Shown here in pieces: positions 33,875 to 34,033 of a stretch of 64,000 bases of DNA. The position numbers and the translations under genes are program-made. The first letter of the stretch is position 1, and each line of letters starts with the position of its first letter. Source of the DNA: the human T2T-CHM13v2.0 reference genome, Homo sapiens; the NCBI RefSeq assembly GCF_009914755.1, contig NC_060926.1; one strand, 5' to 3'. The notes under the pieces were generated by a model. That model was given only the letters and a program-made list of their open reading frames with translations. It did not search any database and was not told where the DNA came from.

Positions 33875-34033
33875 AATCCAAAACATGAGATCCACAAGGT
33901 GTTGGAATTCTTGGAGAAAACAAGATTGTCCACCATACCTCATTTGATGTAATGAAGGATAATCCCATGGCCAACCATACTGCGGTACCTGCTCACATAT
34001 TCAATCACTCCATCTCAAAATTTATGAGGAAAG
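33875..34033 (+). CDS. SULT1C3: SULT1C3 exon 7a, frameshifted here (22 nt shorter than exon 7b)
   Basis: atcAG| acceptor, AAG|GTTGGT donor, 159 nt; reads [15 protein letters not shown] then shifts; [23 protein letters not shown] lies in another frame. Confidence 0.93.

What the first reader, a model, noticed from the sequence alone, without database searches (positions are those of the whole stretch)
33875..34033. 22-nt frameshifting deletion in exon 7a: predicted isoform-specific knockout of SULT1C3
Seen: exon 7a is 159 nt against 181 nt for 7b. Between LEK and K-I, 7b has 24 nt (gac ata tca gag gaa att ctg aat) and 7a has only 2 ('ac', 33920-33921). From the phase-0 exon 6 junction it reads [25 protein letters not shown], with TAA at 33950-33952, 81 nt upstream of the last junction. 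Established: a stop more than 50-55 nt before the last junction predicts NMD, and any protein would lack the RKGxxGDWK PAPS-binding and KxxxTVxxxE dimerisation motifs. The rest of 7a and all of 8a are otherwise clean, implying a recent event. From memory (unverified), the annotated SULT1C3a protein has an intact LEKTWSGDVINKIVHH and 7a/8a is the main intestinal transcript. If so, this haplotype is a natural loss-of-function allele that annotation on the 7b/8b transcript would call intronic.
Basis: partly seen in the sequence, partly recalled or inferred. Interest (0 to 1): 0.85.

Follow-up and report, generated by a model that had tools for sequence, protein, structure and literature searches.

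The report
Frameshift deletion in SULT1C3 exon 7a
This human haplotype has lost 22 bases from one of two alternative end-exons of the detoxifying enzyme gene SULT1C3, which breaks that one protein form and leaves the standard form intact; it is a real but ordinary kind of natural gene-breaking variant.

Summary
Exon 7a (33875-34033) is 159 nt and exon 7b is 181 nt. One 22-nt gap sits after LEK-T, and the frame from exon 6 ends at TAA 33950-33952, 81 nt before the 7a/8a junction.

The gap is a derived deletion. All 5 database proteins that match the 7a peptide (gorilla, mandrill, gibbon, Aotus, Saimiri SULT1C3, each 304 aa) carry seven more residues at that spot. The 89 retained 7a/8a codons are identical to gorilla, the splice sites are canonical, and there is no tandem repeat, so the event looks recent.

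The 7a/8a product would be 232 aa and would lack the 3'-phosphate loop and the KTVE dimer motif. The 7b/8b form (NM_001008743.3) reads through at 304 aa. Only two weak cryptic acceptors could reopen the frame.

Not testable here: allele frequency, raw reads and RNA. Support for an intact human allele is indirect. A synthetic human SULT1C3a cDNA gave an active enzyme (PMC7694633), and the GRCh38 gene span is 25 bp longer than here. I could not verify that 7a/8a is the main intestinal transcript, and RefSeq's chosen transcript uses 7b/8b. Interest is modest.

The parts
33643..33737 (+). SULT1C3 exon 6, shared by both isoforms; ends in phase 0
   Evidence: Hub table. The coding exons up to here sum to 621 nt. 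The donor is AAA|gtaagt.
33875..34033 (+). Alternative exon 7a, 159 nt, carrying the 22-nt deletion
   Evidence: The acceptor has 15 of 18 pyrimidines followed by AG, and the donor is AAG|gttggt.
33919..33924 (+). Deletion junction. The upstream frame (..AAA ACA) and the downstream frame (AAC AAG ..) overlap here, so the breakpoint is ambiguous by a few bases.
   Evidence: The two tblastn HSPs of gorilla P0003 are in different frames and overlap at 33919-33922, and gorilla residues 224-229 are unmatched.
33950..33952 (+). Premature TAA in the exon-6 frame (TGA follows directly), 81 nt upstream of the 7a/8a junction
   Evidence: (first stop at codon 233).
33922..34032 (+). Out-of-frame remainder of 7a. 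It still encodes 37 residues identical to gorilla residues 231-267, including the R-K of the RKG motif.
   Evidence: It matches Pfam Sulfotransfer_1 profile positions 190-225.
35455..35773 (+). Alternative last exon 8a. The coding part runs to 35567, with 36 of 36 residues identical to gorilla. It carries GDWK and the K...TV...E motif, and AATAAA at 35749-35754.
   Evidence: hub table.
39712..39892 (+). Alternative exon 7b, 181 nt, intact. It is of the SULT1C1 type.
   Evidence: It is 90% identical to tenrec SULT1C1. The search with 7b found 211 hits, including many non-primate mammals.
40126..40238 (+). Exon 8b coding part. Together with 7b it gives the open 304-aa isoform.
33925..33925 (+). 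First base of the exon that a cryptic AG acceptor at 33923-33924 would create. Using it would restore the frame but drop 24 residues. Its tract is weak (6 of 18 pyrimidines).
   Evidence: A second such site starts an exon at 33958, with 10 of 18 pyrimidines.

Best explanation
The CHM13 haplotype carries a real, evolutionarily recent 22-bp germline deletion inside exon 7a of SULT1C3. So far exon 7a has been seen only in anthropoid primates.

Transcripts that splice exon 6 to 7a and 8a (the form called SULT1C3a) shift frame after Thr223 and read nine foreign residues. They stop 81 nt before the last exon junction. They are therefore predicted NMD targets.

Any escaping product is a 232-aa fragment. 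It ends in the middle of the Sulfotransfer_1 domain and lacks the 3'-phosphate-binding RKG..GDWK loop and the KTVE dimer motif, so it should be inactive.

Transcripts that splice exon 6 to 7b and 8b (SULT1C3d, the RefSeq-selected form) are unaffected. The allele is therefore an isoform-specific null.

Shown: the deletion, its derived state, the frame and the stop, the intact 7b/8b frame, and the lack of a credible splice rescue. Inferred: NMD, loss of activity, and that intact alleles still segregate in humans.
For: - Sequence and frame.
- Derived state: all 5 proteins returned for the 7a peptide (5 of 5 candidates) are anthropoid SULT1C3 proteins of 304 aa with seven extra residues between T223 and K231.
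- Recency: 89 of 89 retained 7a/8a codons are identical to gorilla, against 201 of 207 in exons 2-6. Splice sites are canonical and the poly(A) signal is present.
- 7a/8a has been under constraint in primates: among gorilla, mandrill and gibbon the C-terminus is 93-94% identical and the N-terminus 82-87%.
- Not a slippage-prone repeat: TRF finds nothing in 33600-34300. In the whole assembly the exon matches only itself and 7b, the latter at 73% over 100 nt.
- Motifs lost: RKG at 266-268 and K...TV...E at 274-283 of the gorilla protein. The Pfam domain spans 46-296.
- No rescue: of 11 AG x 22 GT/GC combinations, only 2 keep the frame open to the 8a stop, and both use weak internal acceptors. 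Skipping 7a, or joining 7a to 7b or 8b, also gives early stops.
- An intact human form exists: a synthetic human SULT1C3a cDNA gave 4-nitrophenol sulfation in fission yeast (PMC7694633, passages read). PDB 2H8K is titled 'SULT1C3 splice variant d'.
- Gene span: GRCh38 span is 25,384 bp (PMC11275347 Table 1), against 25,359 bp here (hub table).
Against: - No human sequence other than this window could be read, so nothing direct shows the intact allele in GRCh38 or its frequency.
- The 25-bp span difference could come from other indels.
- NMD and loss of activity are predictions, and no RNA or protein data were available.
- Primate proteins are mostly automatic gene models, so their use of 7a/8a shows an open frame, not expression.
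- The searches for a printed report found none.
Confidence: 0.75

Rival explanations
1. The deletion is fixed, or nearly fixed, in modern humans. Exon 7a would then be a human-specific dead exon, and the database 'SULT1C3a' would reflect a rare or historical intact allele.
For: Only one human haplotype was seen. RefSeq's selected transcript uses 7b/8b (hub table). 7b/8b is the deeply conserved exon pair.
Against: Human SULT1C3a is treated in print as a full-length, active enzyme (PMC7694633; the title of Kurogi 2017 was seen only in reference lists). The GRCh38 gene span is 25 bp longer than in this assembly. No further decay is seen in 89 retained codons.
Confidence: 0.08
2. Assembly or polishing error in T2T-CHM13: the true sequence has a 181-nt exon.
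For: None from the sequence. It simply cannot be excluded without reads.
Against: The locus is unique, with the only other match being 7b at 73%. It is non-repetitive, so it is not the kind of place where long-read consensus drops 22 bases. From general knowledge, the CHM13 v2.0 consensus error rate is very low.
Confidence: 0.03
3. The frame is rescued by alternative splicing, so a shortened but functional 7a/8a protein is still made.
For: Two in-frame options exist, with acceptors giving exons that start at 33925 or 33958.
Against: Both have poor pyrimidine tracts (6 of 18 and 10 of 18, against 15 of 18 for the real acceptor). They would remove 24 or 35 residues from inside the Sulfotransfer_1 core. 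The other 240 of the 242 combinations tested stay closed.
Confidence: 0.02
4. This rival concerns consequence only and is not exclusive of the best explanation. The deletion is real but biologically silent, because 7a/8a transcripts are rare or weakly active and 7b/8b supplies SULT1C3 function.
For: RefSeq's chosen transcript, with the non-coding exon 1, ends in 7b/8b (hub table). Only the d form was crystallised. My unverified recollection of the Kurogi 2017 abstract is that the a form has weaker, narrower activity.
Against: 7a/8a has stayed open and conserved in 5 of 5 anthropoid species sampled, which argues for some use. Human SULT1C3a is catalytically active in yeast.
Confidence: 0.4

Closest known systems
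Human SULT1C3 isoform using exons 7a/8a ('SULT1C3a'), and its primate orthologues (gorilla P0003, mandrill P0004, gibbon P0005, Aotus P0006, Saimiri P0007)
   Same: Same exon pair and same splice sites. The 16 + 37 + 36 residues flanking and following the gap are identical to gorilla.
   Different: The window lacks 22 nt, which covers seven codons plus one base between T223 and K231. The frame therefore closes at codon 233 instead of running to residue 304.
SULT1C3 splice variant d (exons 7b/8b; PDB 2H8K and 2REO; NM_001008743.3)
   Same: Shares exons 1-6. It is intact in this window at 304 aa.
   Different: Its C-terminal 97 residues are only 66-68 of 97 identical to the five 7a/8a-type proteins. 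They are of the SULT1C1 type: 90% and 85% identical to tenrec SULT1C1, against 44-64% for exons 2-6.
Common natural loss-of-function frameshift alleles in non-essential xenobiotic-metabolism genes (general class; established knowledge)
   Same: A small out-of-frame deletion giving a premature stop more than 50-55 nt before the last junction, in a gene reported as positively selected in mammals (PMC2483296, passages read).
   Different: It hits only an alternative terminal exon pair, so the gene as annotated on its main transcript is untouched and the variant would be labelled intronic.

Membership tests
Cytosolic sulfotransferase (Pfam PF00685 Sulfotransfer_1), 7a/8a isoform as encoded in this window | Complete Sulfotransfer_1 domain in one open frame | tested here: not met
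   The gorilla 7a-type protein matches residues 46-296 at 332.9 bits. The window's 7a/8a frame stops at codon 233, which cuts off roughly the last quarter of the domain.
Cytosolic sulfotransferase (Pfam PF00685 Sulfotransfer_1), 7a/8a isoform as encoded in this window | 3'-phosphate-binding RKG..GDWK loop and K...TV...E dimer motif translated in frame (motif names from established knowledge) | tested here: not met
   The motifs lie at residues 266-274 and 274-283 of gorilla P0003. They are still present in the DNA at the end of 7a and in 8a, but downstream of the frameshift and stop.
Cytosolic sulfotransferase, 7b/8b isoform (SULT1C3d) | Open 304-aa frame with a Sulfotransfer_1 C-terminus | tested here: met
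   The spliced frame has 304 codons plus one terminal stop. The 7b peptide matches PF00685 profile positions 167-225. PDB 2H8K and 2REO carry the 7b-type sequence.
NMD-sensitive premature-termination allele | Stop codon more than 50-55 nt upstream of the last exon-exon junction | tested here: met
   TAA at 33950-33952. The 7a/8a junction follows 34033, a distance of 81 nt.
NMD-sensitive premature-termination allele | Reduced steady-state mRNA from the allele, restored by NMD inhibition | not testable with these tools
   No RNA data are available here.
Segregating human polymorphism (as opposed to a fixed human change) | Both the 159-nt and the 181-nt forms are present among human haplotypes | not testable with these tools
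   Only CHM13 is held. The evidence is indirect: an active synthetic human SULT1C3a and a GRCh38 gene span 25 bp longer.
Derived (not ancestral) deletion | Outgroup species carry the longer form | tested here: met
   5 of 5 anthropoid 7a-type proteins carry the seven extra residues. The paralogous 7b exon does too. Chimpanzee was not seen.

The most novel reading that the evidence does not exclude
The 22-bp deletion is a common human polymorphism that abolishes one catalytically distinct SULT1C3 isoform. It thereby changes gut sulfonation or bioactivation of particular xenobiotics between people. It has gone unnoticed because pipelines built on the main transcript label it intronic. In addition, losing exon 7a sequence could shift splicing toward 7b/8b, so carriers would make more of the d form rather than simply less enzyme.
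Probability: 0.12. Interest if true: 0.5.

Novelty: new member of a known kind. Interest (0 to 1): 0.3.

Why it matters
T2T-CHM13 is increasingly used as a reference genome, and on it the second RefSeq isoform of SULT1C3 cannot be translated. Intact alleles would show up as a 22-bp insertion that annotation on the main transcript calls intronic.

If the allele is frequent, it offers a natural isoform-specific knockout of a poorly understood sulfotransferase. That would let one ask what the 7a/8a form does in people.

It also shows an exon pair that is open and conserved in all five anthropoid species sampled being lost on a human haplotype, while the exons of SULT1C1 type stay intact.

None of this is surprising in kind. 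Frameshift alleles in non-essential xenobiotic-metabolism genes are common.

Tried and rejected
- No open-access paper was found that holds both SULT1C3 and 'exon 7a'.
- None of the 27 listed of 28 'SULT1C3 + deletion' papers, the 2 'SULT1C3 + frameshift' papers, or the 13 'SULT1C3 + loss-of-function' papers concerns this variant, judged by title and by the passages I opened.
- Searches were badly framed. Their minimum-term setting did not force SULT1C3, so they add little.
- A search for a 19-residue stretch of the 7a peptide in paper text found nothing.

**Key papers not held.**
- Not held: Duniec-Dmuchowski 2014, Kurogi 2017 and Dubaisi 2016. A guessed id for a companion paper also failed. 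What I say about them is recalled, or comes from their titles in reference lists.
Those of PMC7694633 might give the exact SULT1C3a construct.

**Looking for an intact human 7a reading frame among unnamed short-contig ORFs.** The near-length search gave one candidate, P0128, at 74% identity. It is clearly another gene or species.

**Sequence checks.**
- Tandem-repeat explanation: none found.
- Other genomic copies that could confuse assembly: only 7b.
- Splice rescue, exon skipping, and 7a joined to 7b or 8b: rejected.
- A microhomology mechanism is suggested by the ambiguous AAC at 33919-33921, which can be read in either frame. It cannot be shown without the undeleted DNA.

Full report
**1. 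The observation**

The window is T2T-CHM13 chr2:108,686,001-108,750,000 and holds all of SULT1C3 (hub table; one search confirms the placement).

Exon sizes and the gap:
- Exon 7a (33875-34033) is 159 nt and exon 7b (39712-39892) is 181 nt.
- A MAFFT alignment of the two exons with 20-nt flanks has 221 columns and a single gap block of 22 columns in 7a. Mean column identity is 79%.

Frame and stop:
- The coding exons through exon 6 sum to 621 nt, so exon 7 starts in phase 0.
- In that phase 7a reads [25 protein letters not shown], then TAA at 33950-33952 and TGA directly after it.
- The first stop is codon 233, the product is 232 aa, and the stop lies 81 nt before the 7a/8a junction.
- The frame that starts at 33922 still reads 37 sulfotransferase residues up to the R-K of the RKG motif.

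**2. Deletion in 7a, not insertion in 7b**

I searched the large protein collection with the post-gap 7a peptide. The query was extended into the intron to reach the tool's minimum length.
- It returned 5 candidates, all significant. All are 304-aa SULT1C3 proteins of anthropoid primates: gorilla, mandrill, gibbon, Aotus and Saimiri.
- All five carry seven further residues between T223 and K231.
- tblastn of the gorilla protein against the window places residues 208-223 in one frame, ending at 33922, and residues 230-267 in another frame, starting at 33919. Residues 224-229 are unmatched.

So 181 nt is the ancestral length of 7a, and the 159-nt form arose on the human side of the human-gorilla split. 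Chimpanzee was not among the hits.

**3. How old, and is the rest intact?**

- The retained 7a/8a codons are identical to gorilla at 89 of 89 positions (16 + 37 + 36). Exons 2-6 differ at 6 of 207 positions.
- The 7a and 8a acceptors are AG, the 7a donor is GT, and the 7a acceptor tract has 15 of 18 pyrimidines.
- AATAAA at 35749-35754 precedes the annotated 3' end at 35773.
- Among gorilla, mandrill and gibbon the 7a/8a-encoded C-terminus is 93-94% identical, while the N-terminal 207 residues are 82-87% identical. The exon pair has therefore been kept open and conserved in primates.
- Nothing else in 7a/8a has decayed, which points to a recent event.

**4. Artefact?**

- Tandem Repeats Finder reports nothing in 33600-34300.
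- In the whole assembly the exon matches only itself and 7b, the latter at 73% over 100 nt.
- The site is unique and non-repetitive, which is not where a long-read consensus would drop 22 bases.
- Reads could not be inspected, so a small residual doubt remains.
- The bases AAC at 33919-33921 can be read as part of either flank.

**5. Consequence**

- The Pfam Sulfotransfer_1 domain spans residues 46-296 of the intact gorilla protein.
- The RKG motif is at 266-268 and the K...TV...E motif at 274-283.
- A 232-aa product lacks both. By established knowledge of the fold, these are the 3'-phosphate-binding loop for PAPS and the dimer interface.
- The stop is 81 nt upstream of the last junction, beyond the 50-55-nt rule, so NMD is predicted. 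This is a prediction, not an observation.

I enumerated 11 AG acceptors and 22 GT/GC donors around the exon.
- Only 2 combinations give a frame open to the 8a stop.
- Both use internal cryptic acceptors, giving exons that start at 33925 and 33958, with 6 of 18 and 10 of 18 pyrimidines. They would remove 24 or 35 core residues.
- Skipping 7a, or joining 7a to 7b or 8b, also ends early.

The 7b/8b isoform is open at 304 aa. The allele is therefore an isoform-specific null, not a knockout of the gene.

**6. Is it a polymorphism?**

This could not be tested.

Indirect evidence for an intact human allele:
[quoted passage not shown] It reports that all family 1 and 2 enzymes gave the expected sulfoconjugates, with 4-nitrophenol as the substrate for SULT1C3a.
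- PDB 2H8K is named 'SULT1C3 splice variant d', which implies the a-d naming of full-length forms.
- PMC11275347 Table 1 gives the GRCh38 gene span as 25,384 bp. The hub table gives 14880-40238, which is 25,359 bp. CHM13 is therefore 25 bp shorter, which would fit a 22-bp deletion plus small indels but does not prove it.

I rate 'segregating allele' as much more likely than 'fixed in humans'.

**7. Which isoform matters?**

I could not check this. Duniec-Dmuchowski 2014, Kurogi 2017 and Dubaisi 2016 are not held, and I know them only from titles in reference lists and from recollection.

What the tools show:
- RefSeq's chosen transcript, which includes the non-coding exon 1, ends in 7b/8b (hub table).
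- Only the d form has solved structures.
- The 7b query finds 211 significant proteins among 814 candidates, including SULT1C1 of many non-primate mammals at 83-95% identity. The 7a query finds primates only.
- Tenrec SULT1C1 is 90% and 85% identical to 7b and 8b, 69% and 78% to 7a and 8a, and only 44-64% to exons 2-6.
- In the whole CHM13 assembly no other exon exceeds 77% identity to tenrec SULT1C1.

So 7b/8b look like the surviving end of a SULT1C1 gene now spliced onto SULT1C3. I recall, unverified, that Kurogi 2017 proposed this. 7a/8a have so far been seen only in anthropoid primates. This weakens the claim that losing 7a/8a is a major functional loss, but it does not settle it.

**8. 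Comparison, novelty, verdict**

This is a natural frameshift allele of a familiar kind, in a gene reported as positively selected in mammals (PMC2483296, passages read). Its one unusual feature is that it sits in an alternative terminal exon pair, so annotation on the main transcript calls it intronic.

None of my literature searches found a report of it. They cover open-access main text only, and the variant is probably already in variant catalogues that I could not query.

Interest is modest at 0.3. It would rise if the allele proves common and the 7a/8a isoform proves to have its own substrates.

Noticed in passing
window 39712-39892 and 40126-40238 (exons 7b/8b) versus 22107-33737 (exons 2-6): SULT1C3d looks chimeric. 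7b and 8b are 90% and 85% identical to tenrec SULT1C1, while exons 2-6 are only 44-64%. A macaque protein (P0012) joins a SULT1C1-type N-terminus to a 7b/8b-type C-terminus. In the whole CHM13 assembly no other exon exceeds 77% identity to tenrec SULT1C1. So 7b/8b seem to be the only remnant of a human SULT1C1.
   Followed up: partly
window 33643-33737 (exon 6) and 28254-30607 (exons 4-5): Human and gorilla differ at 6 of 207 N-terminal residues. Four of these cluster in exon 6 (positions 177, 178, 183, 194), while the 7a/8a part shows 0 of 89 differences. SULT1C3 is listed as positively selected in mammals in PMC2483296.
   Followed up: partly
window 14880-40238 (whole gene): The gene span is 25,359 bp here, against 25,384 bp given for GRCh38 in PMC11275347 Table 1. 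This is a net 25-bp difference, of which the 22-bp deletion may be the main part.
   Followed up: no
G000:C14:28615483-28616049 (-) and G000:C3:139549319-139549786 (-): These are long, intron-less matches to SULT1C1 that cover about 160-195 residues and contain several stops. They look like processed sulfotransferase pseudogenes on other chromosomes.
   Followed up: no
window 33922-34032 (7a peptide): In the PDB search the 7a peptide scores slightly better against SULT1C2 (2AD1, 49.8 bits) than against SULT1C3 variant d (48.6-48.7 bits). This hints that 7a/8a are closer to the SULT1C2 lineage than to 7b/8b.
   Followed up: no
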